DNA from: Sideroxydans sp.
GTDB lineage: Bacteria > Pseudomonadota > Gammaproteobacteria > Burkholderiales > Gallionellaceae
Direction of reading: 5' to 3'
NCBI GenBank assembly: GCA_043744345.1
Contig: JAYTUW010000043.1
Location: 6,535 to 70,534 of the forward strand
Length of the DNA stretch: 64,000 nt
This document shows, one piece after another, positions 14,943-56,682 of this stretch. Numbering within the stretch: position 1 is the first letter of the stretch; every line of letters starts with the position of its first letter. The position numbers and the translations under genes were made by a program. The notes under the pieces were generated by a model. It ran no database searches, was not told where the DNA came from, and saw nothing but the letters and a program-made list of their open reading frames with translations.

Positions 14943-15691
14943 TGGACAAGCTTAGCCTGTTCGGGTTGCTAGTCGCCCTGACCGGCATCCTCGGTGGCCA
15001 GATGCTGGAGGGCGGCTCGGTTGCCGTGTTGATGCAGGCGGCCGCGTTCCTCATTGTGTTCGGCGGCACGATCGGAGCGGTGATGCTGCAACACCCCATG
15101 AAAGTCTTCATGGCCGGCCTTAAAATGGCGGGCTGGGTGTTTGTCACACCGCAGGTCGATACCCAAAAACTGGCGTACCAGATCACGGCCTGGGGCAGCG
15201 TGGCGCGCAAGGACGGTATTCTTGCGCTGGAAGCCCAACTGAACAGAATTGACGATCCGTTCGTCCGCAAGGGATTGCAGATGCTGGTGGACGGCAACAG
15301 CGCGGAAAAGATACGCGAGGTAATGGATGTCGACCTGCAAACGTATGAGACGCTGCGCTGGCAAGCGGCACGGGTATGGGAATCGGCCGCCGGATACGCT
15401 CCCACCATCGGCATTCTCGGTGCGGTGCTGGGGCTGGTGCATGTGATGCAAAGCCTGGCCGAACCGGCCAAACTGGGGGCCGGTATCGCCGTTGCATTCA
15501 TCGCCACCATCTACGGCGTGGGTTCCGCCAATCTGTTGTTCCTGCCCATCGCGGGCAAACTCAAAATCATCATTCAGGATCAGGTGAATATGCGCGAGAT
15601 GCTGATTGACGGGCTGTGCATGGTCGCCAACGCCGAGAATCCCCGCTTCATCGAGAACAAGCTGAAAGGCTACGTCGAAGAGGCCAACTGA
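14942..15691 (+). CDS. motA: Flagellar stator protein MotA
   Basis: The ATG overlaps the fliA stop. The translation MDKLSLFGLLVALTGILGG plus the conserved C-terminal TM pair (GILGAVLGLVHVM, AFIATIYGVGSANLLFLPIA) fit MotA. The track ORF has a 5' extension, which was rejected. Confidence 0.9.
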   Translation: MDKLSLFGLLVALTGILGGQMLEGGSVAVLMQAAAFLIVFGGTIGAVMLQHPMKVFMAGLKMAGWVFVTPQVDTQKLAYQITAWGSVARKDGILALEAQLNRIDDPFVRKGLQMLVDGNSAEKIREVMDVDLQTYETLRWQAARVWESAAGYAPTIGILGAVLGLVHVMQSLAEPAKLGAGIAVAFIATIYGVGSANLLFLPIAGKLKIIIQDQVNMREMLIDGLCMVANAENPRFIENKLKGYVEEAN

Positions 15692-16479
15692 TGGCGCGTC
15701 GCCCAAAAAGACCCGAGCACGACAATCACGAGCGCTGGATGGTCTCCTACGCCGACTTCATCACCCTGCTGTTCGCATTCTTCGTCGTCATGTACGGCAT
15801 CTCCTCGGTGAACGAGGGCAAATACAAAGTCTTCGGCGCCGCCATCAACAAAGCCTTCGGCACCAAATCCAGCGCAACGGAAGGCGGCTCCATCCATTTG
15901 ACCGAAGAAGAGATCTATTTCAAATCGCTGGTGGACAGACGCAACGCGCGCCTCGCGGACAAACAGCGCAAACAGAACGAGCGCATGAAGAACCTCGCCA
16001 ATACGCTGAACGATGCCATGGACAAGTTCGTGAAGAACGGCCAGATGAACGTGTCGCAAACCGGCCGCGGCGTGGAGATCGAAATCAACGCCAGCGCCCT
16101 GTTCAACCAGGGCGAAGCCGACATCCAGCCGGAAGCGAAGAAGACATTGGCCGACGCGGCCAAAGTGCTGGTGGAAAATGAATACGCCATCGAGGTCGAA
16201 GGCCACACCGACAACCTGCCCATCAGCACCGCCAAGTTTCCCTCCAACTGGGAGCTGTCATCGGCGCGCGCCAGCAGCGTGGTGCGCCTGTTCATCGACC
16301 AGGGCGTCGTCGCGAAGCGGCTGAGGGCGGTGGGCTCTGCCGACAACCAACCGGTGCTGCCCAACGACAGCCCGGAAGCCCGCGCCCGCAACCGGCGCGT
16401 GACCATCACGGTGTTGACGCCAGAGGCGGAAGCCGTACCGGCATCGGTGACGGATACATCAGGTGCGGCTGGGGAATAA
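15691..16479 (+). CDS. motB: Flagellar stator protein MotB (OmpA-like C-terminus)
   Basis: The ATG overlaps the motA stop. The plug/TM region is ERWMVSYADFITLLFAFFVVMY (conserved Asp). The peptidoglycan-binding domain reads VEGHTDNLPI...SNWELSSARASSVVRLF. Confidence 0.9.
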   Translation: MARRPKRPEHDNHERWMVSYADFITLLFAFFVVMYGISSVNEGKYKVFGAAINKAFGTKSSATEGGSIHLTEEEIYFKSLVDRRNARLADKQRKQNERMKNLANTLNDAMDKFVKNGQMNVSQTGRGVEIEINASALFNQGEADIQPEAKKTLADAAKVLVENEYAIEVEGHTDNLPISTAKFPSNWELSSARASSVVRLFIDQGVVAKRLRAVGSADNQPVLPNDSPEARARNRRVTITVLTPEAEAVPASVTDTSGAAGE

Positions 16480-16586
16480 ACGACTGAAGACTGCTGGATG
16501 GTTGGGGAGGTCGTGGTCTGTCCCAGATTATTTCTGCGCTAGGGTTAGCAGAGCGGTTAAGAAGGGTGAGGAAAAACGAAGGGGGG

Positions 16587-16660
16587 TGCAATATTCTATA
16601 TTGCAAGACCCGACCCCAAGGTGTTGTGCGACCCCAAGGTGTTGTGACCCCAAGGTGTTG
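16587..16660. repeat. Palindrome TGCAATAT-TCT-ATATTGCA followed by three tandem copies of GACCCCAAGGTGTTG(TG)
   Basis: Read directly. The palindrome is at 16587-16605. The tandem units start at 16612, 16630 and 16646. All lie in the motB-orphan spacer. Confidence 0.85.
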
Positions 16661-16882
16661 CTGAATTTCGATTTGAGGTATGTGCTCAAGCGGATGGAAC
16701 CCGGGCATGAGCATGAACACGATAAGGGGGATAGAAGAAACGGGCTGGAAAGAAATAGTTTACCTACCGCTCTTTAGTTGGCTCGCATGGTCTTGGCGGG
16801 CCTTGCGAGCCGCCTCCTCACACTCTCTACCACGTAGCAGTACACGATTTCGTTTCAATCGCACGGTATTGAAGGGATATAT

Positions 16883-18658
16883 ATGATCGAGACCAATAGC
16901 GCTTACGTTCTTCGCCAACTTTTGTTGCCATTACTCGTGTTTGGAATTTGTGGTGGCGCTTATGCAGGTGCGGATCCTGCTCCCGCAGATTGGTTACCTT
17001 CGTTTAACAAGGTTAAGTTCGATGCGAATGACATCGTTTTCGCTGCAGGGGACACACAGATTCGTTTGCCCAACGGCCAGTGGGATAGCGCTATCAGCTC
17101 ACCGATTAACATATTGTCGGAAAGGCGCGATTCTTATGCGCCAAAGGTGAAAGCTTGTTCCATCCCACAAGAGGTACTTTCGAAGTATAAGAATGAATAT
17201 AACCCGAGCGAGATTTGGTATTGCGACCTCCCGGAGAAGATTTGGTTTGCAAGCGGTGGCTATTGCGGCGAGGGCGATGACAATCCTAAATTGAATCAGG
17301 GGCACTTGTATTCGTACACTCCGTCAAACGGAGAAGTTGTGCAGCATCCCGGTTTTTTGCCTATGTGCGCTGAGCTGGCGGGTTTAGATCGCATTAACAA
17401 CTTACTGGTAGGTGTGACCGTTTATCAGGGAGAATATGGACAAGGCGCAGGCGAGGTGATCTTCCTTGATTTGAATGATTTGAAAGCTCCACCAAGAATA
17501 TTGAGGAATCCAAAATCGTCCGGTGCAGTAGTTGGCATGTCTCCTTACGACAAGCAATGCGATTGCCTGTGGTTTGCCACCCAGGAGGGCATAGAACGCC
17601 TAACCGTTGGTGGCGGCAAATGGGAGCAGCGGTATTTAGATTTTGAGATATCGCCTGAGAATCGGCTCATATTGACGCTTTCGCTCCAAAAGCCAAGTCA
17701 GGCAAAGTTTTGGATGGGCCGAGCGATACACAACTACCCGATTGAAGATCCGCGCGGGTTTGCCAACGCGTGGAATAGAAGCCCAACCCCTCAATATACA
17801 GAGCATCCACGCACCGGGCCATTGATTCTTCCCTTCTACATTGCGGCAATCGAGCGCACGAAAGACTGGGAAAAGGATTGGACTTATGGCGAACTGATCA
17901 GGATCGTGGCGATGCACCAAGATCCAGAAAGCAAGCCAGCAGCTCGTGCTTATATTGAAATGCAGCTAAAGCAACCCATAAAACTGAGCAGAAAGGGTGA
18001 GCTTATGTCAGCTGCCAAGAGGCTAGGGGTTAATGCCAAAAGTTTGGAGGGCGCATATTTCAACGACTTGCTGATTGAATATTTTTCCGGCTCGAAGACA
18101 AAATACTCCCATGAGAAAGATGTTGTCAGGTACGCCTTTGAACATCCGGAATATCTCCCCAAACTCAGAGAGTATTATCAGGCAAACACCATTTCGTTTG
18201 ATATCGAAAGGTCTTTTCTTGATACAGTTAAGTCATATAGCATGTGGCAAGGTTATTCAGTCATGGCTGCGACTATTGATGCAGGGCTGAAGCGCATGAG
18301 GCATCGCTCTGATTTGTTCCAGATGTGCGCAACAGACGACACTCCAAGAAATGAAAAGAAGTTGTCCGCTATTCTGCAGGCACGGCTGGAAACGGATACT
18401 CAGGCAAAACTGACGAATGAGGCAGGTTGGGGTGAGCACAATTGTATCAATGCTTCCTTCTACTGGATCAATTACGGCGGACCTGACCAAGTTCGAAGAA
18501 GAATCGATCTTATGCTTGCAACTGCCGCTGAGCATAATGAATATAGCTCTATCATCTTTGAGGCTTTGAATCGCAAGTACTCGACACCGTATAAAAGTAT
18601 CGATGAATGGAGGCGTTGGTGGAATTCTTATGCGCAACCCGCCAATTCATCGCATTAG
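16883..18658 (+). CDS. Secreted hypothetical protein (591 aa) with no family recognised, in an AT-richer insert
   Basis: This is a long ORF with AAGGGA 6 nt upstream of the ATG. It has an N-terminal signal peptide (LLLPLLVFGICGGAYAGADP). Codon usage is clearly AT-richer than all neighbouring genes. Motifs such as IWFASGG and CLWFATQEGIERL are faintly propeller-like. The C-terminal half is helical and rich in W, Y, E and K. Confidence 0.7.
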   Translation: MIETNSAYVLRQLLLPLLVFGICGGAYAGADPAPADWLPSFNKVKFDANDIVFAAGDTQIRLPNGQWDSAISSPINILSERRDSYAPKVKACSIPQEVLSKYKNEYNPSEIWYCDLPEKIWFASGGYCGEGDDNPKLNQGHLYSYTPSNGEVVQHPGFLPMCAELAGLDRINNLLVGVTVYQGEYGQGAGEVIFLDLNDLKAPPRILRNPKSSGAVVGMSPYDKQCDCLWFATQEGIERLTVGGGKWEQRYLDFEISPENRLILTLSLQKPSQAKFWMGRAIHNYPIEDPRGFANAWNRSPTPQYTEHPRTGPLILPFYIAAIERTKDWEKDWTYGELIRIVAMHQDPESKPAARAYIEMQLKQPIKLSRKGELMSAAKRLGVNAKSLEGAYFNDLLIEYFSGSKTKYSHEKDVVRYAFEHPEYLPKLREYYQANTISFDIERSFLDTVKSYSMWQGYSVMAATIDAGLKRMRHRSDLFQMCATDDTPRNEKKLSAILQARLETDTQAKLTNEAGWGEHNCINASFYWINYGGPDQVRRRIDLMLATAAEHNEYSSIIFEALNRKYSTPYKSIDEWRRWWNSYAQPANSSH

Positions 18659-18779
18659 CAGCCAACACAATAGATGCATGCGCAATCGATGGGGCAGACT
18701 CGATTGATTCCCCATAGATCGACATCCGGCGCACAGCCGAAAAGACCAATTACTTTGGAATGACTTGCGGAGCTGTCGC

Positions 18780-19253
18780 TCAGACGCTACCCAGCGTCCT
18801 GCTGCCGCTGATCTGGTTCGGCTGTCCGTCCGCGCCATACAGCCCCGCGGCACTTTGCGACGCGCTGTACAGCACACCCAACGCTTGCTGGTTGTAACGC
18901 AGTTTGATCTGGATGAGTTCGCCGTTGGTCTGGTTCAGGCGTTGCACGTGGGTTGCCAGTTGGCGTGCTTCCAGCCAGATCGGCAATGCTTGCGGCGCGT
19001 TTTGCTTCAGCCATTCCGCCATGTCTTTGGTGCCTTGCGGTACGTGGCGCTGGCGGGCAGAGGAGAGCGTGGAAATCTTGCTGGCCAGCTGGATCTTGGC
19101 TTCGGCGAGGGGCAGCAGTTCTTCGCTGTGCTGGCCGAGCAGGATGCGCTGTTCGTCTTCAAGCAAAACGACGAATGCCCGCAGGGTGGCGCATTCGTCG
19201 TTCAGGCTGGACTGAAATTCAGTCGCGATGCTGTTTGTCGGTTTTGCGGTCAA
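18780..19253 (-). CDS. flgN: Flagellar export chaperone FlgN
   Basis: Its position after flgM (with ATGA overlap), its size and its helical FlgN-like sequence (ECATLRAFVVLLEDEQRILL...QRLNQTNGELIQ) support the call. Confidence 0.8.
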   Translation of the reverse strand: MTAKPTNSIATEFQSSLNDECATLRAFVVLLEDEQRILLGQHSEELLPLAEAKIQLASKISTLSSARQRHVPQGTKDMAEWLKQNAPQALPIWLEARQLATHVQRLNQTNGELIQIKLRYNQQALGVLYSASQSAAGLYGADGQPNQISGSRTLGSV

Positions 19254-19567
19254 CGTTGGTTGGCGGTAATCAGATCGCGCACGGAGTCGATCAAACGATC
19301 GGCCACTACACCCGAATTCACCTTGAACCGCCCCTCACTGATAGCTTGCTTGATCTCGGCCACCTTGTGTGTGTCGACCAGCGGGGTGCTGGCGATGCTG
19401 CCCTCGATGCTGCGCAACTGTGCCGTGGTCGTGCCCAGATGCACGCTGGTTCCGCTGTCTTCGGTAGCGGCGGTCTTGTTGCCCGTGGCTCGCGCGGTTT
19501 GGTTGCGCGAGCTTGCTTCTCCAACGGTGGAGGCTGGCGACGGACTGTTGGTTTTTTCGATTTTCAT
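19250..19567 (-). CDS. flgM: Anti-sigma-28 factor FlgM
   Basis: This 105-aa protein has a disordered N-terminal half. The conserved C-terminus reads VDTHKVAEIKQAISEGRFKVNSGVVADRLIDSVRDLI. Confidence 0.85.
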   Translation of the reverse strand: MKIEKTNSPSPASTVGEASSRNQTARATGNKTAATEDSGTSVHLGTTTAQLRSIEGSIASTPLVDTHKVAEIKQAISEGRFKVNSGVVADRLIDSVRDLITANQR

Positions 19568-19603
19568 TGGGGTATCCCCTTCACTCTGACTCGGTTATAC
19601 ACA

Positions 19604-19630
19604 TCATCGGCAGGCGTCTGGAAAACTTTA
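19604..19630 (-). promoter_or_regulatory. Sigma-28 (FliA) promoter of flgMN
   Basis: The minus strand reads TAAAGTTT-N11-GCCGATGA (consensus TAAAGTTT-N11-GCCGATAA). The -10 element ends 36 nt upstream of the flgM ATG. Confidence 0.65.
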
Positions 19631-19673
19631 GGGCGCTTCGTTGAATGTGTCCATTATATAAGCGATAGCTGCA

Positions 19674-20363
19674 TCACGGGCGCACATCCACACAGCCGTC
19701 TGCCGCTGCAATGCCGGAAATCACCTGGCCCGAAGCCATGCGTACCTGCACGGCCTGACCTTCCGCACCGCTGTTAAGAGCCTGTCCCGCTGAACGGACG
19801 GAAAATCCGGTGCTATTCACCCGGACCTGGGTCGTTTGCCCCTGGGTCACGACGAAGGGGGCGCGCAACATGTCCTGGCGCAACACCTGTCCTGCTCCGA
19901 TGCCGAATTTGAGGGTTTTGCCGATGGCCTGGGCAGGATCGGTGAGGATGCCGGGCTGTCCCAGCTCGCCGCTTTGCAGGCTGAAATCACCCGAGCCCAA
20001 TACCGAGTTCTGTGCCAGTGGCCGGTTGGCGACCAGCAAGGTGGCGCTGACGCGGATGGTGGCCTGCACGAAGATGGACCAGCCCGGTTTCTCGTTGCAG
20101 CGCACACCGATACTGGTCTTGCCGATCTGCTGGGCCCCTGCCGGGGTGTAGGCCTCCGGTGCGGCACAGGCGCGCAGGGTCACGCGCGGGTCGATCTCGC
20201 CGATCTGGATGCTGACTTTGCCGGGCAACGTCCGGGTCTGCTGTTGGGCGTAAGCAAGTGCTATCTCGCGTATTCGCGCATGGCTCTGCGTCGCGGCGGC
20301 CTGGGCGGGCGGGCACAGCAGAAGTGTCGCAAGTAGCGCTAAAACAAGGTTTTTCATGTCCAT
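19674..20363 (-). CDS. flgA: Flagellar P-ring assembly chaperone FlgA
   Basis: It has a signal peptide (LLATLLLCPPAQA) and an SAF-like C-terminus (GQVLRQDMLRAPFVVTQGQTTQVRV...GQAVQVRMASGQVISG). It is divergent from flgB. Confidence 0.85.
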   Translation of the reverse strand: MDMKNLVLALLATLLLCPPAQAAATQSHARIREIALAYAQQQTRTLPGKVSIQIGEIDPRVTLRACAAPEAYTPAGAQQIGKTSIGVRCNEKPGWSIFVQATIRVSATLLVANRPLAQNSVLGSGDFSLQSGELGQPGILTDPAQAIGKTLKFGIGAGQVLRQDMLRAPFVVTQGQTTQVRVNSTGFSVRSAGQALNSGAEGQAVQVRMASGQVISGIAAADGCVDVRP

Positions 20364-20498
20364 ATTGTGGAACTGAAAGGGGTTTTCTAAAGGCGGAAAT
20401 AAAACGGGTTTCCACTCTTAATCGCGGGATGGGGGGTGACGCCCGGTGATTAGTATGCAAGACGTGAGGAAAGCCTCGAATCGGGGCGGGAGGGCAAG

Positions 20499-20903
20499 AT
20501 GAGCGGCAGGATAGACGATATGTTCCGGTTACACCAGACAGCCCTGAACCTGCGGGCTGCGCGGCAGGAATTGCTGGCGTCCAACATCGCCAATGCGGAT
20601 ACGCCGAACTACAAGGCGCGCGATATCGATTTCGCCAGTGCCCTGCAAGGCGCGATGACGGGCAGCGGCGACAAGTTGTCGGTGGCGACGACTTCGGCGG
20701 CGCACCTGTCGGGCGCAACGGGTTCGAGTGTCATGGGTGCGCCGGTGATGTACCGCAATCCCGTGCAGCCGAGTGCGGACGGCAACACGGTGGATATGGA
20801 TGTGGAGCGGGCCCAGTTCGCCGACAACGCGTTGCGCTACGAGGCCAGTGTTCGATTCGTGAGCGATGAAGCCAAGGATGTCCTGGCGGCGTTGCAAGGC
20901 TGA
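20499..20903 (+). CDS. flgB: Flagellar proximal rod protein FlgB
   Basis: The N-terminal rod motif is LRAARQELLASNIANADTPNYKARDIDF. Confidence 0.9.
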   Translation: MSGRIDDMFRLHQTALNLRAARQELLASNIANADTPNYKARDIDFASALQGAMTGSGDKLSVATTSAAHLSGATGSSVMGAPVMYRNPVQPSADGNTVDMDVERAQFADNALRYEASVRFVSDEAKDVLAALQG

Positions 20904-20910
20904 ATTAAAG

Positions 20911-20967
20911 ATTGTTTTTCTCGTTTGCCCTTTCTCCCGCTTGCGGGGGAAAGTTGGATAGGGGGAC
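20911..20967. repeat. ~55-bp palindromic intergenic element (copy 1, flgB-flgC spacer)
   Basis: The sequence ATTGTTTTTCTCGTTTGCCCTTTCTCCCGCTTGCGGGGGAAAGTTGGATAGGGGG has a near-identical copy in reverse orientation at 24973-25027. Confidence 0.85.
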
Positions 20968-26974: not shown

Positions 26975-27859
26975 ATGGCGCTCCCGGGAACAGATATCGG
27001 AAGTCTGGCGGCCGACAGTCAGAGTCTGGCAAAACTGCGCATGCAGGCCAAACAGACACCGGACCAAGCGCTCAAGGCGGCGGCGCAGCAATTCGAATCC
27101 GTGTTTTTGAACATGATGCTGAAAAGCATGCGCGAAGCGACGCCGCAGGAAGGCATGTTCGATAGCGAGCAGACGCGGATGTTCACCGGCATGCTCGACC
27201 AGCAACTGGCGCAGACCATGTCGTCGCGCGGTGTGGGGCTGGCCGAGGTGATGGTGCGCCAGCTCAGTCATAACCAGCCTGCAGCAACGCCCACCACGGC
27301 ACCCGCCGCACCCGCGGCAAAGACGGTTGCTGTGCCGCAAGTCGCAACTCCGGTATCGAAGCCGGAAGCCACCGGCGGCATGCCGTCCCCCTACAAGTCG
27401 GACGTACAACAGGACTTTGTCGACAGGATGCGCCCGCATGCGGAACGCGCCAGCCTCAGCACGGGTATTCCAGCGCACCTCATCATGGGTCAGGCCGCGC
27501 TGGAAAGCGGCTGGGGCAAGCGCGAGATCAGGATGGCTGACGGCAGCGACAGCCACAACCTGTTCGGCATCAAAGCGGGCAAAGATTGGAATGGCAAAGT
27601 GGCGGAAGTGACCACCACCGAATACCACAATGGTGTCGCGAACAAGCAGGTGGAACGCTTCCGTGCGTACGGCTCCTATACCGAAGCATTTCAGGATTAC
27701 GCGAAATTCCTGAAAGATAACCCGCGCTACGGTGAGGTTTTGGGCAAGGGTGACGCGAAGGGCTTTGCACAGGGCTTGCAGCAAGCCGGATACGCCACCG
27801 ATCCGCAATATGCGAAGAAACTGGTGGGTGTGATCGGAAGCGTCAGGGCCAGAGCCTAA
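26975..27859 (+). CDS. flgJ: Flagellar rod assembly protein / muramidase FlgJ
   Basis: The N-terminal rod-binding motif is AAQQFESVFLNMMLKSMREA. The C-terminal glucosaminidase domain reads GIPAHLIMGQAALESGWGKRE...NLFGIK. Confidence 0.9.
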   Translation: MALPGTDIGSLAADSQSLAKLRMQAKQTPDQALKAAAQQFESVFLNMMLKSMREATPQEGMFDSEQTRMFTGMLDQQLAQTMSSRGVGLAEVMVRQLSHNQPAATPTTAPAAPAAKTVAVPQVATPVSKPEATGGMPSPYKSDVQQDFVDRMRPHAERASLSTGIPAHLIMGQAALESGWGKREIRMADGSDSHNLFGIKAGKDWNGKVAEVTTTEYHNGVANKQVERFRAYGSYTEAFQDYAKFLKDNPRYGEVLGKGDAKGFAQGLQQAGYATDPQYAKKLVGVIGSVRARA

Positions 27860-27883
27860 AGTTTGGTGGATTATTGCCGATAG
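27857..27883 (+). promoter_or_regulatory. Sigma-28 (FliA) promoter of flgKL
   Basis: The sequence TAAAGTTT-GGTGGATTATT-GCCGATAG has 15 of 16 consensus positions with an 11-nt spacer. It ends 40 nt upstream of the flgK ATG. The TAA of the -35 element is the flgJ stop codon. Confidence 0.7.
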
Positions 27884-27923
27884 ATTCACCAAGTAGAGCT
27901 GCCGAGCGGCAAAAGGACGGGAC

Positions 27924-33912: not shown

Positions 33913-34065
33913 AGCCGTGATGTACCTGTGAGAGCACGCGCACAGTTTGACCGCACTGGGTGTGGGATAACGCTACAGTGTGACTTTCCGTATCGATGTA
34001 TCTCCGGAATTTTTCGGGACGCTGGCCGGATGCGTTCAAATCGTTGCCAACTTGAAAGGAATATC

Positions 34066-34506
34066 ATGATCAAATTCAACCTGAAGCGACTGGGCGGAGC
34101 AACTGTGGAATTCGATCCGAAGACGGTCGTCGAATTTCCCGCAGGGATTCCCGGCTTTGAAGCTTGCAAGAAGTTCAAACTTTTTCATGAGGAAGGCAAG
34201 CCGACCCTGTTCTTTTTGCAGTCGCTGGAAAAACCCGAGGTGCTGTTCTCCCTGGGTGATCCCGGATTGCTGAATCTATCCTACGAAGTGACACTGTCGG
34301 ATGCCGAGCAGAAGATGCTGGAAGCCGCGCCAGGCGATGAGCTGGTTCTGGTGGTGATCGTGTACCGGGATGACAATGCGGAAAACAAGGCGGCGGCTGT
34401 CAAAGCCAACATGTTCGCGCCCATCATCCTCAATATCACCAAACGCCGCGGCCTGCAGAAGGTATTGAAGGAACTGGATGCCCAGGTGGCCATCAGGGGC
34501 GCTTAG
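34066..34506 (+). CDS. fliW: Flagellar assembly factor FliW
   Basis: The ATG follows GAAAGGA. The sequence VEFPAGIPGFEACKKFKLF...LFFLQSLEKPEVLFSLGDP...LVVIVY...ANMFAPIILNITKRRGLQ is typical of FliW. Confidence 0.85.
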   Translation: MIKFNLKRLGGATVEFDPKTVVEFPAGIPGFEACKKFKLFHEEGKPTLFFLQSLEKPEVLFSLGDPGLLNLSYEVTLSDAEQKMLEAAPGDELVLVVIVYRDDNAENKAAAVKANMFAPIILNITKRRGLQKVLKELDAQVAIRGA

Positions 34507-41009: not shown

Positions 41010-41465
41010 TCAGCCGAACAGCTTGCCGAACAAGCCTCTTCTGTTCTGTCCTTCCATCTCTTCCGGCAGCGATAGATCGCCGACGACGGAGACGTAGTCC
41101 ATATCGTCATGCTTGATATGGCCGAACAACCAGTTGAACATCATCGCGTGCAATTCACCGGAAATGTCCTCACCGAGTCTGAAGCGTTCCTGATAATCGT
41201 TCAGGCGTTTGATGAAAATCTCATGCACATTCCGGTGCGCTTTCAGGAAGGGATAGTTCGCTTCTTCGAGCAGCCGCTCTTCATATTTGAAATGCGAAGC
41301 GGTATAGCCCACCAGTTTGTCGATCACTTTGGCGACGAGCGAATTGTTGACCCCGCCGGTCTTGGCATCGTCGAGCTGGTTGATGTATTCGACGATCATC
41401 TTGTGCTGCTTGTCGATCGTTTCGATGCCGGTGTTCAGATTTGAAGTCCAGATTGTCTTTGCCAT
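41010..41465 (-). CDS. Bacteriohemerythrin (hemerythrin-like metal-binding protein)
   Basis: The N-terminus is W.SNLNTGIETIDKQHKMIVEYIN. The His/Glu/Asp ligand pattern is HFKYEERLL, HRNVHEIF and LFGHIKHDDMDY. Confidence 0.85.
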   Translation of the reverse strand: MAKTIWTSNLNTGIETIDKQHKMIVEYINQLDDAKTGGVNNSLVAKVIDKLVGYTASHFKYEERLLEEANYPFLKAHRNVHEIFIKRLNDYQERFRLGEDISGELHAMMFNWLFGHIKHDDMDYVSVVGDLSLPEEMEGQNRRGLFGKLFG

Positions 41466-41713
41466 GTCATTTCCTGTTCGTGGGGCCTGTCCGGATTTCT
41501 GCCGCTTTATCCTGCAGAAAATCAGGCCATTTTAGCTGTGTGTAGTCAGAAGCTGCAAATCCCGTGCCAGGAGTGTGGGAACGCAGCGTGCCATCACAAC
41601 AGCCTTGCAAGCTCCAAGTGCCTGTTCAAATGACGTATTGGAGTCAGCGGACGTCGAAATCATGACCAAAACCGTACAACTGCATGCTGGATGCCGATTT
41701 TGCTTTCTGGAAC

Positions 41714-41977
41714 TTATTCCGGCTTATGTTCGGTCGGGTGGCCCGGGCGAAATCCGGAGGCTTGGTTGGCCAGCATCCGTTCGCGCAACTCATGCATCTT
41801 GGGCGAGGTGGGCGGGCGCTCATCCTCATACGGCGACCTGGAGATGGGGCATGTATCGGAAGCGCGACGAACGGGGTGGAATGCGTAGCCGGATAGCGCC
41901 GTTTCCATCGCGGAGTTTTCCCTCATGGGCAGGCGGTTTGCCGGTTCGGAATGGGACAGATCGTGTGCAAGTTTCAT
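41714..41977 (-). CDS. Hypothetical small protein (87 aa)
   Basis: The internal ATG is preceded by a strong AGGAGG with 5-nt spacing. No family was recognised and the composition is unremarkable. Confidence 0.4.
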   Translation of the reverse strand: MKLAHDLSHSEPANRLPMRENSAMETALSGYAFHPVRRASDTCPISRSPYEDERPPTSPKMHELRERMLANQASGFRPGHPTEHKPE

Positions 41978-42427
41978 GATGTCCTCCTGCTGCACAAGTG
42001 CGGGAAGCAAGTTGGTCCCACACTGGAATTTAAGGCTACTCCGGGCTACTCCACGGGTCAATATTCGACACCGAGTACACACGACAAGGGTAGGGATGGC
42101 ACGCGCGATGGGGCTTTAACTTGCATCATCTTATCAGCGGGATGCGGGCGATAAGCGAACAAAAACTCAACATCGGACCCTGTTTGCGGATGTCACGAGG
42201 AGTGCTTGAAGCCGTTTAATTTTGCAACAGTTTGAAGGTGATCTGCAGCGCTCGTGGCTCGGCATTTTACGTTGTCTTGACTGCGCCTTCCCGCTTCCTT
42301 CACACATGGATTGTTAGCATGAAACCGTTATAGGCAATGTATGCGTTGTCACACATTCGAGCCGCAAAGAGGCGGGTGGAGAGGATGTGCTGTGCATGGC
42401 GTCAATAACTGCAAAAGGAGATCAATC

Positions 42428-42733
42428 ATGACGATCACATTGACTGCTCCCAAGCCGCATTCTGCGCCGGACTTACCACCCGGGATCGCGCAGGATGTCT
42501 CTTTCATTCACGAGAACTTCCCCAACATCGGGCACAAGATCATGCAAGCCTGGGGGACGGGTGAATTACACCGCTATCTCGGCACGCTGATCTTCGACGA
42601 GCGTGGCGGTCGTCATGGTTTCCCCGAACCGATTGTCTCGGCCCTGTTCAGGGTGCACGAAACCGACAGGAGGATGGTTCCCGAGGCCGCCAAAGGAGAC
42701 ATATGGGATGTCGTGCTGGACCGTCTGGCGTGA
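42428..42733 (+). CDS. Hypothetical small protein (101 aa)
   Basis: The ATG is preceded by AAAGGAG. The sequence has a plausible globular character (IMQAWGTGELHRYLGTLIFDERGGRHGFPEPIVSALFRVHE). No family was recognised. The gene is convergent with fliR. Confidence 0.55.
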   Translation: MTITLTAPKPHSAPDLPPGIAQDVSFIHENFPNIGHKIMQAWGTGELHRYLGTLIFDERGGRHGFPEPIVSALFRVHETDRRMVPEAAKGDIWDVVLDRLA

Positions 42734-42750
42734 CTGCCCGCACGGGCGGG

Positions 42751-43539
42751 TTAGTGACCGCCCAACTGCAGCAAGACGCGTGACACGGTATCCAGACCCC
42801 GGTGCGTGAAGTATTCCATCAGCGGGGCAAGGTAAGGGATGGTCAGCAGCAGGGCGGCGAATCCCACGGCAAGCGTGATGGGGAAGCCGACCGCAAAGAT
42901 GTTGAGTTGCGGTGCGCTGCGCGTGAGTATGCCGAGCGCCAGGTTGGTGATGAGCAGCACACCAATCAGCGGCAGGGAAAATTGCAGCGCGTGACTGAAC
43001 ATGCTGCCGCCCCATTCGGCCACGGTGCGAAAAGCGTTCGCGGAAGGCACATTCGCCCCGATCGGAAAATCGCGAAAACTGTCGGCCAGCGCGGCCAGCA
43101 TGTAGAGATGCCCGTCGACGCTGATGAAGGCCAATGCCGCGATGATGCCCAGGAACTGCGCAATCACGGGGGTAAAGGTTGCGTTCTGCGGATCGTAAAA
43201 ACTGGCGAAGCCCAAACCCATCTGCATACCCGCCAGATCACCCGCCATTTCCACCGCACTGAAAATCAGCCGGATCGAGAAGCCGATGATGACACCGGCG
43301 ACAATCTGCTGCACCAGCACGAACAATCCTTGCGCCGAAGCCGGGTCGATATCGGCGGGGATGTCCAGGGTGGGTGCAATGACCACCGCAATGATGACAG
43401 CCAGTCCGACCTTGATACGGGCGGGAACTTGTTTGGTGCCGAAGATGGGAGCGCTGGCGATGAGCGCCAGAATGCGGGCGAGCGGGAAGATGAAGGCGGC
43501 GAGCCAGGCGGAAAGCTGGGCGCTGGTGAAGCTGATCAC
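42751..43539 (-). CDS. fliR: Flagellar export gate protein FliR
   Basis: This polytopic membrane protein begins MISFTSAQLSAWLAAFIFPLARILALIASAPIFG and follows fliQ. Confidence 0.9.
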   Translation of the reverse strand: MISFTSAQLSAWLAAFIFPLARILALIASAPIFGTKQVPARIKVGLAVIIAVVIAPTLDIPADIDPASAQGLFVLVQQIVAGVIIGFSIRLIFSAVEMAGDLAGMQMGLGFASFYDPQNATFTPVIAQFLGIIAALAFISVDGHLYMLAALADSFRDFPIGANVPSANAFRTVAEWGGSMFSHALQFSLPLIGVLLITNLALGILTRSAPQLNIFAVGFPITLAVGFAALLLTIPYLAPLMEYFTHRGLDTVSRVLLQLGGH

Positions 43540-54068: not shown

Positions 54069-54146
54069 TCTCGGGAACTGCTTTGGTGCTCAATCCGCGG
54101 GTGTGTAGCCGGATTCATTTGAAGCAAGACTTTGAGTGGCGTAAAA

Positions 54147-56675
54147 ATGACTATTGGGGCTTTTTCGCAACAGACTGCGCAGGCGAGCGAACAGGCTTTG
54201 CGCGAAGCGGTCAGTCAGCATGATGCAGGCAACCTGCATGAGGCTGAAATGCGTTTTCGGGCTATTTTGCAACGCGATCCGAATCATCCCGAAGCGAACT
54301 ATTTCATGGGCGTATTGGCGATGCGGCAGAAGCAGGTCTCTTTAAGCCTGCCCTATTTCCTGGTTGCTTTGAATGCGGATCCGGCACGTGGCTATTACTG
54401 GCTGAGTTATGTCGAGGCGCTGTTTCAGACCGGACAACTGGAAGAGGCACGCCAGATTCTGGCATTGGCCCGACAACATGGTTTGGAAGGTGAAGAAACA
54501 GAGGCTTTGGCGGTACGTTTGGACGGCAAGGAGGGCGTCGTCGAAAGGCCGGCAGTCGCCGAACCGTGGCCTCCTTCGCATGCAGGCCAGATGGATATCC
54601 CGAATACGTCCGAAGCAAAGACCCCGAGCCCGGACAGATCCGGCAATCAACCGCAACAAGCTCCTTTCCCTGAAGAAATAGACGCGCTGGTGGCGCTGTT
54701 TAACCAGGGACGCTTTTCTGAAGCCATAACTGATGCCCGATCCATGACGGAGGATCATCCCGAACACTGGGTAGGCTGGAAGATGTTGGGCGTGGTATTT
54801 CAGCAGCTGGGCCGAGATGAGGATGCATTACTGCCGATGCAAAAAGCGGCGGCACTGTCACCAGGTGATGCCGAGGCACACAATAACCTGGGCATCATCC
54901 TGCAGAATCTGGGACGACTGAATGAGGCGGAGGCCAGCTACCGGCGCGCACTGAGGATCAACCCGGATTATGCGCATGCGCAAGGCAATCTGGGGGCGAC
55001 GCTGCAAGCTTTGGGTCGCATGGCCGAGGCCGAGGCCAGCTACCGACGGGCGTTGCAGATCAACCCGAATTACGCCAAGGCACGCGGTAATTTGGGCGCA
55101 GTACTGCGTGCCTTGGGCCGACAAGACGAGGCTGCAGCCAACTACCGAAGCGCTCTGCAAATCAACCCGAATGACATAGAAGTGCATTTCAATCTAGCCG
55201 CTCTCCTGAGGGATATGGGGCAACTAGATCAAGCCGAAAACCAATATAGGCAAGTACTGAAGCTCGATCCGGACTACGCCGAAGTACATTTCGACTTGGG
55301 TAATCTGCTTCAGGATAGCGGGCGTCTGGCCGCGGCGGCGGAGAGCTACCGGCAAGTGCTCAGGATAAAACCGGATTTCACCGAGGCACACAACAACCTG
55401 GGCGCCATATTGCTGGAATCGGGTCGGCTGGATGAGGCTGCGGCCAGTTTTCGGTGTGCGCTGGAGATCGATCCGAGACATGCCAAGGCACACAACAACC
55501 TGGGTGCCGTACTGCTGGAAACGGGTCGGCTGGATGAGGCTGCGGCCAGTTTTCGGCGTGCGCTGGAGATCGATCCGAGTCATGCCAAGGCACATAACAA
55601 CCTGGGCGCCGTACTGCTGGAAATGGGCCGACTGAATGAGGCTGCGGAGAGCTACCGGCGCGCGCTGGAAATCAAGCCGGATTATGCAGAGCCTTGTTTC
55701 AACCTGGGTCATGTGCTCTGCGATCTGGATGATCTCGATCGGGCTGCCGCTGCCTATCAAAAAGTCATGGACATCTCACCCCTAAACACCGGCTTGGATG
55801 CGGAGGTCTATTTGGCCATATTGCATTACTTGAAAGGCAATCTGGTGCAATGCCGAAACATGCTCAACGTGTCCCGGACGATCATGACGCAGGTCAATGA
55901 CAAGCGAAAGAATGTTTGCGGTTATTGGTTCTACCTCGACAAACTGTTATCGGGTCAGACGCAAGCTATTCAAAGCGGCCCTCAGCCTGCGGAGGCTGAA
56001 ACGCTATATGTGATCGGAGAAAGTCATTCTTTGAGTGCACACGGCGTGGAGGTTCGCTACAACAAACGGAAGATGCATGCCAGAGCAGAATGGATTTCCG
56101 GATGCAAGCAATGGCATTTGGGCAATGGCAAAAACAACAAGTACAGGCAAAAATTCGGGGCAGTCATGGCCAGGATACCGCGCTCATCCACCGTTTTGCT
56201 GGAGATTGGCGAAATAGATTGTCGGCACGACGAAGGTATCATCAAGGTATGGGAAAAACATCCAGAAAAAGAATTGGATGAAATTGCCCGTGTCACGTCA
56301 ACCGCTTACCTTAACCATGTGGCCGGGACCGGAAAACACTATGGGCATAGAATCATCATCGCCGGGGTGCCCGCGCCCAACATTGCTTCAATTGCGATAA
56401 CGGCGACCGCAGCCGGGCGGCTTGTTCATTTGATCCGGAAATTCAATGCAACTTTAAAGGAACTGGCGTTAGATTCAGGCATGGGTTTCTTGGACGTGTA
56501 CGCGCTGACTGATCGCGGAGATGGTATGGCGGACGGACAATGGCACATCGACTCTTACCATTTGCTGCCCGGTGCCGTGATAGAAGCTTTTGACAAGTTC
56601 TGTTTGCCGGGAATTGAGCCGGTAACCGGTCAACACAGCGAATGCGCCAGCGACCGAACCGATCAGACTGAATGA
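54147..56675 (+). CDS. TPR-repeat protein with C-terminal SGNH/GDSL-like domain (tentative)
   Basis: It has the shared N-terminal module, then ~11 TPR units, then a ~290-aa C-domain. That domain carries GESHS (56016-56030), IGEIDC and DSYH (56550-56561), resembling SGNH blocks I, III and V. An alternative GTG start lies at 54132. Confidence 0.7.
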   Translation: MTIGAFSQQTAQASEQALREAVSQHDAGNLHEAEMRFRAILQRDPNHPEANYFMGVLAMRQKQVSLSLPYFLVALNADPARGYYWLSYVEALFQTGQLEEARQILALARQHGLEGEETEALAVRLDGKEGVVERPAVAEPWPPSHAGQMDIPNTSEAKTPSPDRSGNQPQQAPFPEEIDALVALFNQGRFSEAITDARSMTEDHPEHWVGWKMLGVVFQQLGRDEDALLPMQKAAALSPGDAEAHNNLGIILQNLGRLNEAEASYRRALRINPDYAHAQGNLGATLQALGRMAEAEASYRRALQINPNYAKARGNLGAVLRALGRQDEAAANYRSALQINPNDIEVHFNLAALLRDMGQLDQAENQYRQVLKLDPDYAEVHFDLGNLLQDSGRLAAAAESYRQVLRIKPDFTEAHNNLGAILLESGRLDEAAASFRCALEIDPRHAKAHNNLGAVLLETGRLDEAAASFRRALEIDPSHAKAHNNLGAVLLEMGRLNEAAESYRRALEIKPDYAEPCFNLGHVLCDLDDLDRAAAAYQKVMDISPLNTGLDAEVYLAILHYLKGNLVQCRNMLNVSRTIMTQVNDKRKNVCGYWFYLDKLLSGQTQAIQSGPQPAEAETLYVIGESHSLSAHGVEVRYNKRKMHARAEWISGCKQWHLGNGKNNKYRQKFGAVMARIPRSSTVLLEIGEIDCRHDEGIIKVWEKHPEKELDEIARVTSTAYLNHVAGTGKHYGHRIIIAGVPAPNIASIAITATAAGRLVHLIRKFNATLKELALDSGMGFLDVYALTDRGDGMADGQWHIDSYHLLPGAVIEAFDKFCLPGIEPVTGQHSECASDRTDQTE
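55389..55694 (+). repeat. Three tandem 102-bp near-identical TPR-coding repeats inside the 54147-56675 gene
   Basis: The units start at 55389, 55491 and 55593 (HNNLGA(I/V)LLE.GRL(D/N)EAA.S(F/Y)RRALEI.P..A.A). Units 1 and 2 differ at only a handful of nucleotides. Confidence 0.9.
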
Positions 56676-56682
56676 CTTCATA

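What the first reader, a model, noticed from the sequence alone, without database searches (positions are those of the whole stretch)
16480..18779. AT-richer ~2.3 kb insert between motB and flgN carrying a single 591-aa secreted orphan
All surrounding genes are GC-rich with GC-ending codons. The ORF at 16883-18658 and its flanks are visibly AT-richer, with many AAA, AAT, TTT and ATA codons. The protein has a Sec-type signal peptide and several Cys residues. Weak propeller-like motifs (IWFASGG, CLWFATQEGIERL) occur in the first half. The second half is helical and rich in W, Y, E and K, and I cannot place it in any family. No integrase, transposase, tRNA or obvious target-site duplication flanks the insert. 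A foreign periplasmic protein sits precisely between the stator genes and the flgNMA operon. It could be an acquired periplasmic motor or basal-body accessory, comparable in role to the lineage-specific MotX/MotY, FlgT and PflA/B proteins. It could also be unrelated cargo.
Basis: partly seen in the sequence, partly recalled or inferred. Interest (0 to 1): 0.7.

Follow-up and report, generated by a model that had tools for sequence, protein, structure and literature searches.

The report
Foreign secreted-protein gene between motB and flgN
A 2.3-kb piece of foreign DNA carrying one intact gene for a secreted protein of an unnamed, very rare family has landed in the tiny gap between two flagellar operons of a Gallionellaceae-type bacterium, and the evidence says it is passenger cargo and not a new flagellar motor part.

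Summary
ORF 16883-18658 (591 aa) lies in a 2,300-bp motB-flgN gap. That gap is 4-12 bp in the two closest relatives, with a median of 18.5 bp in 38 relatives. It is the lowest-GC stretch of the window (GC3 0.51 vs 0.745±0.043; CAI 0.50 vs 0.70). An independent assembly reproduces both junctions at 100% identity. The insert also holds a relic of the 3' end of a second gene, which precedes the orphan's ortholog in two other contigs.

The protein has a conserved Sec signal peptide, eight invariant cysteines, a β-propeller-like N-domain and an α-solenoid C-domain (AF2 pLDDT 83.5). It matches no Pfam, NCBIfam, PADLOC, PHROG or PDB entry. Its family is tiny (54 representatives among 1.84 billion proteins) but under purifying selection (dN/dS 0.13-0.18).

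None of 80 related motB loci carries a homolog. None of 12 homolog loci is flagellar, and most homologs are AT-rich outliers in variable regions. The insert has no σ28 promoter. A Foldseek hit to the Campylobacter PflA/PflB scaffold is not significant (E 0.035, TM 0.21).

Verdict: horizontally acquired stand-alone envelope protein. Its flagellar position is most likely incidental.

The parts
15616..16479 (+). motB (stator), left flank of the insert; intact
   Evidence: Pfam MotB_plug 1.5e-20 and OmpA 1.2e-21. 88% identical to the L008 MotB.
16480..18779 (.). The ~2.3-kb foreign insert (whole motB-stop to flgN-stop interval)
   Evidence: The spacer is 4-12 bp in the closest relatives and has a median of 18.5 bp in 38 relatives. 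It is the lowest-GC 2.3-kb stretch of the window. L096 reproduces it at 100% identity.
16611..16662 (+). Tandem triplication of an 18-nt unit (CGACCCCAAGGTGTTGTG), at the breakpoint of the gene relic
   Evidence: the repeat finder family D3. TRF gives 2.9 copies at 94% identity. There are 3 matches against 0.18 expected, and none in other loci.
16655..16777 (+). Relic of the last ~35-40 codons of a 370-aa secreted-protein gene (…LNFDLRYVLKRMEPGHEHEHDKGDRR…*), which lies upstream of the orphan's ortholog in L007 and L088
   Evidence: blastn: window 16659-16751 is 80% identical to L007 1984-2082. tblastn E = 1e-6. The L007 ORF 969-2081 ends …LDFNLRYVLKQTEHGHEHEHEHNKGDRRKER. L088 shares the same upstream gene end.
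16776..16815 (+). Stable hairpin just after the relic's stop codon; no T-run, so not a canonical intrinsic terminator
   Evidence: MFE -24.5 kcal/mol, z = -2.66, 1 of 200 shuffles as stable. Inverted repeat I20.
16837..16882 (+). Leader and ribosome-binding region (GAAGGGA 6 nt before the ATG), co-transferred with the gene
   Evidence: Nucleotide homology to L007 starts at window 16837, 46 nt upstream of the start codon. Sequence read.
16883..18658 (+). Orphan gene, 591 aa: Sec-exported two-domain protein of an unnamed family
   Evidence: ORF. 23 clusters at 90% identity and 54 representatives at 50% identity. dN/dS 0.13-0.18. No hit in Pfam, NCBIfam, PADLOC, PHROGs or PDB sequences.
16883..16966 (+). 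Signal peptide (aa 1-28, predicted cleavage AYA|GADP)
   Evidence: Hydrophobic maximum at aa 7-25 and the only such segment. The AxA|G motif is conserved across the alignment. C23 is not conserved, so there is no lipobox. pLDDT is <50 here.
17000..17683 (+). N-terminal all-β, propeller-like domain (aa 40-267) with 6 invariant Cys and the GGYCGEGDDxP motif
   Evidence: AF2 secondary structure. Foldseek hits to Kelch, WD40 and hemopexin propellers have probability ~1.0 but low TM. The family profile weakly hits an FG-GAP propeller protein.
17699..18631 (+). C-terminal all-α solenoid domain (aa 273-583), ~17 helices, invariant ARLETDxQA motif and Cys482/Cys521
   Evidence: AF2 full-length and domain-only models (pLDDT 83.5 and 85.7). 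Foldseek gives only generic TPR/ARM/HEAT-type matches with E >= 0.035.
18659..18779 (.). Right-hand non-coding end of the insert
   Evidence: Homology to L007 stops at 18679. Homology to L008 resumes at ~18757. There is no significant fold and no terminator.
18780..19253 (-). flgN, right flank; intact. It is transcribed with flgM from a sigma28-type promoter at ~19630 (-)
   Evidence: Pfam FlgN 1.5e-21 and FlgM 2.8e-13. Promoter TAAAGTTT-N11-GCCGATGA matches 15 of 16 positions.

Best explanation
This is a small horizontally acquired islet, not a flagellar component.

How it arrived (inferred). A ~2.3-kb fragment from a donor of about 50% GC integrated by illegitimate recombination, not site-specific recombination. 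It landed in the 4-12-bp spacer between the convergent stop codons of motB and flgN. That position disrupts neither operon, so the insertion could be tolerated. The fragment is a truncated piece of a larger donor region. It carries the last ~40 codons of an upstream 370-aa secreted-protein gene, a hairpin, the native leader with its ribosome-binding site, and one complete gene.

What the gene encodes. The gene is functional. The product is exported by Sec, cleaved after Ala28 and oxidised in the periplasm (eight invariant cysteines, probably four disulfides). It folds into a β-propeller-like head joined to an α-solenoid. Both are classic ligand- or protein-binding scaffolds, and no catalytic signature is detectable. 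It most likely acts on its own as a periplasmic or cell-surface binding or scaffold protein whose role does not depend on the flagellum.

Shown here: the insertion, its foreign composition, the relic of the second gene, gene integrity and purifying selection, the two-domain fold, the absence of flagellar linkage in relatives and homologs, and the absence of a sigma28 promoter.

Inferred: export and disulfides, the binding/scaffold role, the recombination mechanism, and that the gene is expressed.
For: - Empty sites: the spacer is 12 bp (L008) and 4 bp (L009), with a median of 18.5 bp in 38 relatives, against 2,300 bp here.
- Composition: GC3 z = -5.6, CAI 0.50 vs 0.70, the lowest-GC stretch in 64 kb.
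- Independent assembly: L096 is 100% identical across both junctions.
- Relic of the L007/L088 upstream gene inside the insert.
- No mobility genes, tRNA, terminal repeats or significant TSD. No viral, phage or plasmid homologs.
- Homologs sit in 12 different non-flagellar, mostly non-syntenic neighbourhoods. Neighbours include a PIN toxin, a transposase-HTH fragment, GmrSD/HEPN, an integrase, an antitoxin and an AAA_14 ATPase. In 5 of 7 contigs the homolog is 6-13 GC points below its surroundings.
- 0 of 80 motB loci carry a homolog.
- Purifying selection: dN/dS 0.13-0.18 in all pairs. The window copy keeps all 78 family-invariant residues.
- AF2 pLDDT 83.5, pTM 0.70, with a β domain plus an α-solenoid.
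- Family members carry extra binding modules (DUF3857, Sel1 repeats, a Cys-rich tail).
- No sigma28 promoter in the insert, whereas flgM and flgK have 15/16 matches.
Against: - The position immediately after the stator gene, with no predicted terminator between motB and the ORF, allows read-through co-expression with fliA-motAB. A periplasmic β-domain + α-solenoid architecture is what PflA has, and the top (non-significant) Foldseek hit of the C-domain is a chain of the C. jejuni motor scaffold.
- The biochemical function is not established by anything here. 'Binding scaffold' is an inference from fold class only.
- No promoter-like site was detected upstream of the ORF, so expression is unproven.
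- Most homolog contigs are short (2-25 kb), so distant flagellar linkage cannot be fully excluded.
Confidence: 0.7

Rival explanations
1. Envelope-protection cargo. The protein is a periplasmic or surface 'shield' or immunity-like binder. It would neutralise an incoming envelope-targeting toxin, bacteriocin or phage receptor-binding step, and would travel between strains through variable or defence-type islands.
For: - Several homologs sit beside island or defence-type genes: a PIN toxin plus a transposase-HTH fragment (L001), GmrSD_N plus a HEPN-like gene (L006), an integrase 2 kb away (L003), an antitoxin (L004) and an AAA_14/DUF4143 ATPase (L095).
- The gene is a compositional outlier in most hosts, with a patchy, tiny distribution.
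- It is secreted and disulfide-bonded.
Against: - No PADLOC or PHROG match.
- No conserved partner (toxin or otherwise) across loci.
- 591 aa is large for an immunity protein.
- The L007 upstream genes have no recognisable toxin domain.
- The neighbours listed are individually common and were not tested for enrichment.
Confidence: 0.12
2. Acquired flagellar motor accessory. In this reading a periplasmic scaffold, working like PflA/PflB, MotX/MotY or FlgT, is co-transcribed with motAB and contacts the MotB periplasmic domain or the basal body.
For: - It lies directly downstream of motB on the same strand with no predicted terminator.
- Export to the periplasm is predicted.
- It has an N-terminal β domain plus a C-terminal α-solenoid, as in PflA (PMC12222027).
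- The best Foldseek hit of the C-domain is 9hmf_K, the C. jejuni periplasmic scaffold.
Against: - That hit has E = 0.035, TM 0.21/0.13 and rmsd 17.6 Å. It sits among dozens of generic TPR/ARM/HEAT hits of similar score.
- There are no TPR, Sel1, MotY or FlgT Pfam matches even at E <= 1, and no PDB sequence match.
- 0 of 80 related flagellar loci have it. 0 of 12 homolog loci are flagellar.
- No sigma28 promoter.
- A stable hairpin lies between motB and the ORF.
- Relatives with 4-12-bp spacers have the same flagellar gene set without it.
Confidence: 0.07
3. Non-functional passenger. In this reading the ORF is intact only because the insertion is recent. It is silent or decaying in this host and does nothing.
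For: - No promoter-like site upstream.
- Its upstream partner gene is already truncated to a relic.
- Composition is not ameliorated.
- One homolog (L004) carries an in-frame stop.
Against: - The 1,776-bp frame is fully open with all 78 family-invariant residues.
- dN/dS of the window copy against four relatives is 0.13-0.17 in both domains.
- Its native leader and RBS were retained.
- Pairwise dN/dS cannot exclude very recent loss of constraint.
Confidence: 0.06

Closest known systems
Small genomic islets carrying horizontally acquired ORFan genes (single-gene insertions without mobility genes)
   Same: A compositionally foreign, single intact gene. It is absent from the orthologous site in close relatives and has a patchy distribution in variable neighbourhoods. 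There is no integrase or tRNA, and it was inserted at a convergent intergenic gap.
   Different: Nothing essential differs. Unusual details are the precision of the site (a 4-12-bp spacer inside a flagellar regulon) and the retained relic of a second donor gene.
PflA / PflB periplasmic stator scaffold of Campylobacter and Helicobacter (PDB 9hmf; PMC12222027)
   Same: Periplasmic. It has an N-terminal β domain followed by a long α-helical repeat domain (PflA), and the gene is next to a stator gene here. The top Foldseek hit of the C-domain is 9hmf_K.
   Different: The hit is not significant (E 0.035, TM 0.21/0.13). PflA/B are canonical TPR proteins, while this protein has no TPR or Sel1 Pfam match. 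PflA's β domain is a sandwich, not propeller-like. Homologs of this protein are never in flagellar loci, and related flagellar loci lack it.
MotX/MotY and FlgT (Vibrio T-ring/H-ring proteins)
   Same: Secreted, lineage-specific, and periplasmic by prediction.
   Different: No match to the MotY_N/OmpA, Sel1 (MotX) or FlgT domain families at E <= 1. The fold class differs.
β-propeller + α-solenoid ('protocoatomer-type') proteins: clathrin heavy-chain terminal domain plus linker (1bpo, 5ods), IFT-A subunits, GATOR2
   Same: The same order of fold classes. These are the best whole-chain Foldseek hits (E 1e-5 to 1e-3, probability 0.9-1.0).
   Different: TM-scores are only 0.11-0.18 with rmsd >19 Å. 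The β domain here is only ~230 residues with long strands. The protein is Sec-exported and disulfide-bonded, whereas coat proteins are cytoplasmic. There is no sequence similarity. The resemblance is architectural only.
DUF3857 (PF12969)-containing bacterial proteins
   Same: Three family members (P0014, P0016, P0025) carry a C-terminal DUF3857 domain, and one also carries nine Sel1 repeats.
   Different: The window protein lacks these extensions. DUF3857 is itself of unknown function.

Membership tests
Horizontally acquired genomic islet | Absent from the orthologous site in close relatives | tested here: met
   The spacer is 4-12 bp in L008 and L009, with a median of 18.5 bp in 38 relatives. 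0 of 80 loci have a homolog.
Horizontally acquired genomic islet | Composition and codon usage deviate from the host | tested here: met
   GC3 0.507 vs 0.745 ± 0.043 (z = -5.6). CAI 0.50 vs 0.70 ± 0.04. It is the minimum-GC 2.3-kb window.
Horizontally acquired genomic islet | Homologs patchily distributed in non-syntenic contexts | tested here: met
   12 loci have different neighbours. Only the pairs L007/L088, L004/L005 and L001/L002 share flanks.
Classical mobile element (IS, integrative element, integron cassette, prophage) | Integrase or transposase, terminal inverted repeats, target-site duplication, tRNA or att site | tested here: not met
   No such ORF. No terminal IR or TSD. No tRNA. 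No viral, phage or plasmid homologs.
PflA/PflB-type flagellar periplasmic scaffold | TPR-repeat superhelix detectable by sequence | tested here: not met
   No TPR or Sel1 Pfam family even at E <= 1. A real TPR protein in the same window (54132-56675) scores 7e-83.
PflA/PflB-type flagellar periplasmic scaffold | Significant structural similarity to PflA or PflB | tested here: not met
   9hmf_K has E = 0.035, TM 0.21/0.13 and rmsd 17.6 Å. That is not distinguishable from generic solenoids.
PflA/PflB-type flagellar periplasmic scaffold | Physical association with stator or basal body and a motility phenotype | not testable with these tools
   This needs deletion, cryo-ET and pull-downs.
Flagellar regulon gene (any class) | Conserved linkage with flagellar genes across genomes | tested here: not met
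   0 of 80 flagellar loci contain it. 0 of 12 homolog loci contain a flagellar gene.
Flagellar regulon gene (any class) | Sigma28 (FliA) promoter upstream | tested here: not met
   No site in 16300-19000. There are 15/16 matches upstream of flgM and flgK. Read-through from motAB was not testable.
MotX / MotY / FlgT | Sel1 repeats (MotX), MotY_N + OmpA (MotY), FlgT_N/M/C domains | tested here: not met
   Pfam scan at E <= 1 returned 0 families.
β-propeller superfold (WD40, Kelch, FG-GAP, hemopexin ...) | Recognisable blade repeats and a closed propeller | tested here: inconclusive
   Foldseek probability is ~1.0 to many propellers, but TM is low and rmsd is 10-15 Å. The profile weakly hits an FG-GAP protein at E = 1.3e-4. 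There is no Pfam repeat hit.
Sec/SPase I-exported protein | N-terminal n-h-c signal peptide with an AxA cleavage site and no lipobox | tested here: met
   MIETNSAYVLRQLLLPLLVFGICGGAYA|GADP. The pattern is conserved family-wide, and C23 is not conserved. This is a heuristic; no dedicated predictor was available.
Known anti-phage defence systems (PADLOC) | Match to a defence-protein model | tested here: not met
   0 families at E <= 1 for the protein, two long homologs and the two L007 upstream proteins.

The most novel reading that the evidence does not exclude
The protein is a newly recruited periplasmic stator or basal-body scaffold. It would be a β-domain + α-solenoid module analogous to PflA, captured by horizontal transfer and co-transcribed with motAB by read-through. 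That would be a snapshot of the very first step by which flagellar motors acquire lineage-specific periplasmic accessories.
Probability: 0.06. Interest if true: 0.7.

Novelty: new member of a known kind. Interest (0 to 1): 0.25.

Why it matters
As it stands, this is a clean, well-bounded example of a single foreign gene slipping into a 4-12-bp gap inside a conserved flagellar regulon without disturbing it. It shows that position next to motB is not evidence of motor function.

The modest value lies in the protein. It belongs to an undescribed, extremely rare but selectively maintained family of secreted, disulfide-bonded two-domain proteins (β-propeller-like plus α-solenoid). The fold is confidently predicted and has no close solved relative. 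The family appears to hop between Gallionellaceae-type groundwater bacteria.

If the flagellar reading were true against the odds, it would illustrate how motor accessories are first acquired.

Tried and rejected
1. Target-site duplication, or a relic of the ancestral motB 3' end at the right junction. By eye GGAATGA-TTG…GAGC looked shared with L008, but the local alignment score is reached by 74 of 500 shuffles. Rejected.
2. Terminal inverted repeats. Only short chance-level pairs were found.
3. The 18-nt triple repeat as a mobile-element or recombination signature. It is unique to this locus.
4. RNA genes or a riboswitch in the 400-bp upstream gap. There is no Rfam hit at E <= 1.
5. Phage or plasmid vehicle. 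There are no homologs in IMG/VR, INPHARED or PLSDB.
6. A conserved partner gene. All-vs-all comparison of neighbour ORFs across 13 loci found none beyond three syntenic pairs. L090's upstream 400-aa gene is not related to L007's 370-aa gene.
7. Toxin or LAS-peptidase identity for the L007 upstream genes (a guess from motifs). There are no Pfam, NCBIfam or PDB hits.
8. A second-iteration profile search with divergent members. It gave no new relatives or names.
9. The metagenome scan gave only two extra short loci. The context of a 34%-identity member was a 2-kb contig with no information.
10. Literature on DUF3857 was uninformative.
11. Enlarged motB-flgM or flgA-flgB gaps in other lineages hold native-GC genes, so they do not indicate an insertion hotspot.
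12. Model coordinates are not exposed, so disulfide pairing and blade number could not be measured.
Full report
**1. What is in the sequence**

The window is a flagellar and chemotaxis regulon of a betaproteobacterium. The gene order is flhA, flhF, fleN, fliA, motA, motB on the + strand. Then come flgN, flgM and flgA on the - strand, followed by flgB-E and further genes on the + strand. MotB is 88% identical to that of a Sideroxyarcus MAG and 84% identical to that of a Nitrosomonadales MAG, so the host is a Gallionellaceae-type organism.

Between the motB stop (16479) and the flgN stop (18780) lie 2,300 bp.

**2. The compositional anomaly is real and large**

- The interval has GC 0.487. This is the minimum of all 2.3-kb windows across the 64 kb (mean 0.590, sd 0.026).
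- The ORF has GC3 0.507 against 0.745 ± 0.043 for 34 bona fide genes of the window (z = -5.6).
- Its codon adaptation index is 0.50 against 0.70 ± 0.04, and the lowest native gene scores 0.585.

**3. It is an insertion, and it is not an assembly artefact**

- I fetched 80 related motB loci from species-representative genomes and located fliA, motA, motB, flgN, flgM, flgA and flgB in each.
- In the two closest relatives the convergent motB and flgN stop codons are 12 bp (L008) and 4 bp (L009) apart.
- Among 38 relatives where both genes are detectable, the median spacer is 18.5 bp, and 36 are <=150 bp.
- None of the 80 loci encodes a homolog of the ORF.
- Homology to L008 is lost near the end of motB and resumes at about 18757.
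- L096, a contig assembled independently from a public read set, is 100% identical to window 15745-20954. It spans both junctions.

**4. Anatomy of the insert**

No integrase, transposase, tRNA, Rfam family, terminal inverted repeat or significant target-site duplication is present. An apparent relic of the ancestral motB end at the right junction is not significant, because 74 of 500 shuffles score as well.

The insert is not purely one gene. Positions ~16655-16777 encode …LNFDLRYVLKRMEPGHEHEHDKGDRR…*. This is homologous to the C-terminus of a 370-aa signal-peptide-bearing protein whose gene lies directly upstream of the orphan's ortholog in contig L007, and also in L088. The nucleotide match is 80% identical and the tblastn E-value is 1e-6. 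The insert is therefore a truncated fragment of a larger donor region.

Other features, from left to right:
- An 18-nt tandem triplication (16611-16662) sits at the truncation point and is unique to this locus.
- A stable hairpin without a T-tract follows the relic (16776-16815; z = -2.66).
- The 46 nt upstream of the ATG, including a GAAGGGA Shine-Dalgarno-like sequence, are shared with L007.

**5. The protein**

There is no hit in Pfam or NCBIfam (at E <= 1 or 10), PADLOC, PHROGs or PDB sequences.

The family is very small. It has 23 clusters at 90% identity among 5.8 billion sequences. It has 54 representatives at 50% identity among 1.84 billion in an exhaustive HMM search. A second iteration with divergent members adds nothing. 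Only one member carries an organism name, a Gallionellaceae MAG.

The family alignment shows a conserved Sec-type signal peptide with AxA|G cleavage. There is no lipobox, because Cys23 is not conserved. Eight cysteines in the mature part are invariant, as are the motifs GGYCGEGDDxP and ARLETDxQA.

dN/dS is 0.13-0.18 in all measurable pairs, including the window copy and both domains. The gene is therefore real and under purifying selection. One homolog (L004) has an in-frame stop.

**6. Fold**

AlphaFold2 with the family alignment gives pLDDT 83.5 and pTM 0.70. The model has an all-β domain (aa ~40-267) followed by an all-α domain of ~17 helices (aa 273-583). The C-domain modelled alone reaches pLDDT 85.7.

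- Foldseek against the PDB finds β-propellers (Kelch, WD40, hemopexin) for the N-domain.
- For the whole chain it finds 'propeller + solenoid' proteins (clathrin terminal domain plus linker, IFT-A, GATOR2). E-values are 1e-5 to 1e-3, but TM-scores are only 0.11-0.19 and rmsd exceeds 10 Å. BFVD gives the same picture.
- The C-domain alone has no hit below E = 0.035.

The best C-domain hit is chain K of 9hmf, the Campylobacter jejuni motor periplasmic scaffold. It has TM 0.21/0.13 and rmsd 17.6 Å, and is followed closely by nucleoporins, importins, AP complexes, 14-3-3 and NprR. [quoted passage not shown] This protein has no TPR or Sel1 Pfam signal, whereas a real TPR protein in the same window scores 7e-83. 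I therefore treat the 9hmf hit as generic solenoid similarity.

Some family members carry extra C-terminal modules: a Cys-rich ~95-aa tail, DUF3857, or Sel1 repeats. Some have only one of the two core domains, which fits a modular binding protein.

**7. Where homologs live**

I examined twelve homolog-bearing loci: L001-L007, L088-L090, L091/92 and L095. None contains a flagellar gene or any ORF similar to the window's flagellar genes.

The neighbours differ from locus to locus:
- a PIN toxin and a transposase-HTH fragment;
- GmrSD_N and a HEPN-like gene;
- a phage-type integrase 2 kb away;
- an antitoxin;
- an AAA_14 ATPase;
- HU-family genes;
- citrate synthase and an aminotransferase.

In five of seven contigs the homolog is 6-13 GC points below its surroundings. 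The two contigs holding the closest homologs (L006 and L007, 78-80% identity) are themselves ~50% GC, so they look donor-like. There are no homologs on viral contigs, phages or plasmids.

**8. Regulation**

A sigma28 consensus scan finds two 15/16 matches in the window, upstream of flgM (19630, -) and flgK (27857, +). It finds none in or near the insert. No sigma70-like promoter or intrinsic terminator is predicted between motB and the ORF. Read-through from motAB can therefore be neither shown nor excluded, though the hairpin at 16776-16815 could impede it.

**9. Interpretation**

The best-supported explanation is a horizontally acquired islet. A truncated donor fragment integrated by illegitimate recombination into the neutral 4-12-bp gap between two convergent operons. 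It brought one functional gene for a Sec-exported, disulfide-stabilised two-domain protein (β-propeller-like plus α-solenoid). That protein most likely acts as a stand-alone binding or scaffold protein of the cell envelope, and its flagellar neighbourhood is incidental (confidence ~0.7).

Rivals:
- an envelope-protection or immunity-like cargo of variable islands (0.12);
- a recruited motor accessory (0.07);
- a silent passenger (0.06).

The experimental half of that criterion (deletion phenotype) remains open.

**10. Novelty and score**

The event, an ORFan islet, is of a well-known kind. The protein family is undescribed and structurally without a close relative, but its architecture is generic. 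Interest is 0.25. The most novel reading not excluded is a first-step capture of a PflA-like periplasmic motor scaffold, with a probability of about 0.06.

Noticed in passing
window 19603-19630 (-) and 27857-27884 (+): Two near-perfect sigma28 (FliA) promoters (TAAAGTTT-N11-GCCGATGA / GCCGATAG, 15 of 16 positions) lie upstream of flgM-flgN and of flgK. They are useful internal positive controls for class-III regulation in this organism.
   Followed up: partly
window 16611-16662: An 18-nt unit (CGACCCCAAGGTGTTGTG) is tandemly triplicated exactly where homology to the truncated 370-aa gene begins. It is unique to this locus, and its origin (slippage at the breakpoint?) is unexplained.
   Followed up: yes
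L007 1-2081 (and L088 1-366): The donor-like contig has two further unannotatable genes upstream of the orphan's ortholog: a >=321-aa protein and a 370-aa secreted protein ending in a His/Glu-rich tail (HGHEHEHEH). Neither matches Pfam, NCBIfam or PDB. They may form an uncharacterised secreted-protein cluster.
   Followed up: partly
L004 1721-3433: The 80%-identical homolog in this contig is interrupted by an in-frame stop at 2885-2887. It is either a pseudogene or a sequencing error.
   Followed up: no
P0008, P0010, P0011, P0015, P0017, P0018, P0020 (alignment A1 columns ~660-860): About a third of family members carry a conserved ~95-aa C-terminal extension with eight cysteines (…CSKEM.VC…C.S…C…C…C.GFRKD.GGTEAGAKC…CNEDG.PY.V..H). 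It has no Pfam match and may be a new small disulfide-rich domain.
   Followed up: no
L053, L054, L064, L083 (between flgA and flgB); L023, L029, L045, L073, L082 (between motB and flgM): Other betaproteobacterial lineages have native-GC genes of 550-650 aa, or 2-6 kb of extra genes, at junctions of the same flagellar cluster. So these operon boundaries vary in gene content between lineages. The genes were not identified.
   Followed up: partly
window 54132-58563 (+): Two large TPR-rich proteins lie at the far end of the flagellar region: an 847-aa protein, and a 626-aa protein with a C-terminal SAM-methyltransferase domain. The first is in a mildly low-GC patch (0.53-0.56). They may be flagellin-modification or regulatory proteins.
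   Followed up: no
window 33928-34506 and 41010-41465: FliW (a flagellin/CsrA partner) and a stand-alone hemerythrin gene lie in slightly AT-richer patches. The stretch 41466-43285 has no ORF of >=150 aa and no Rfam or tRNA hit.
   Followed up: no
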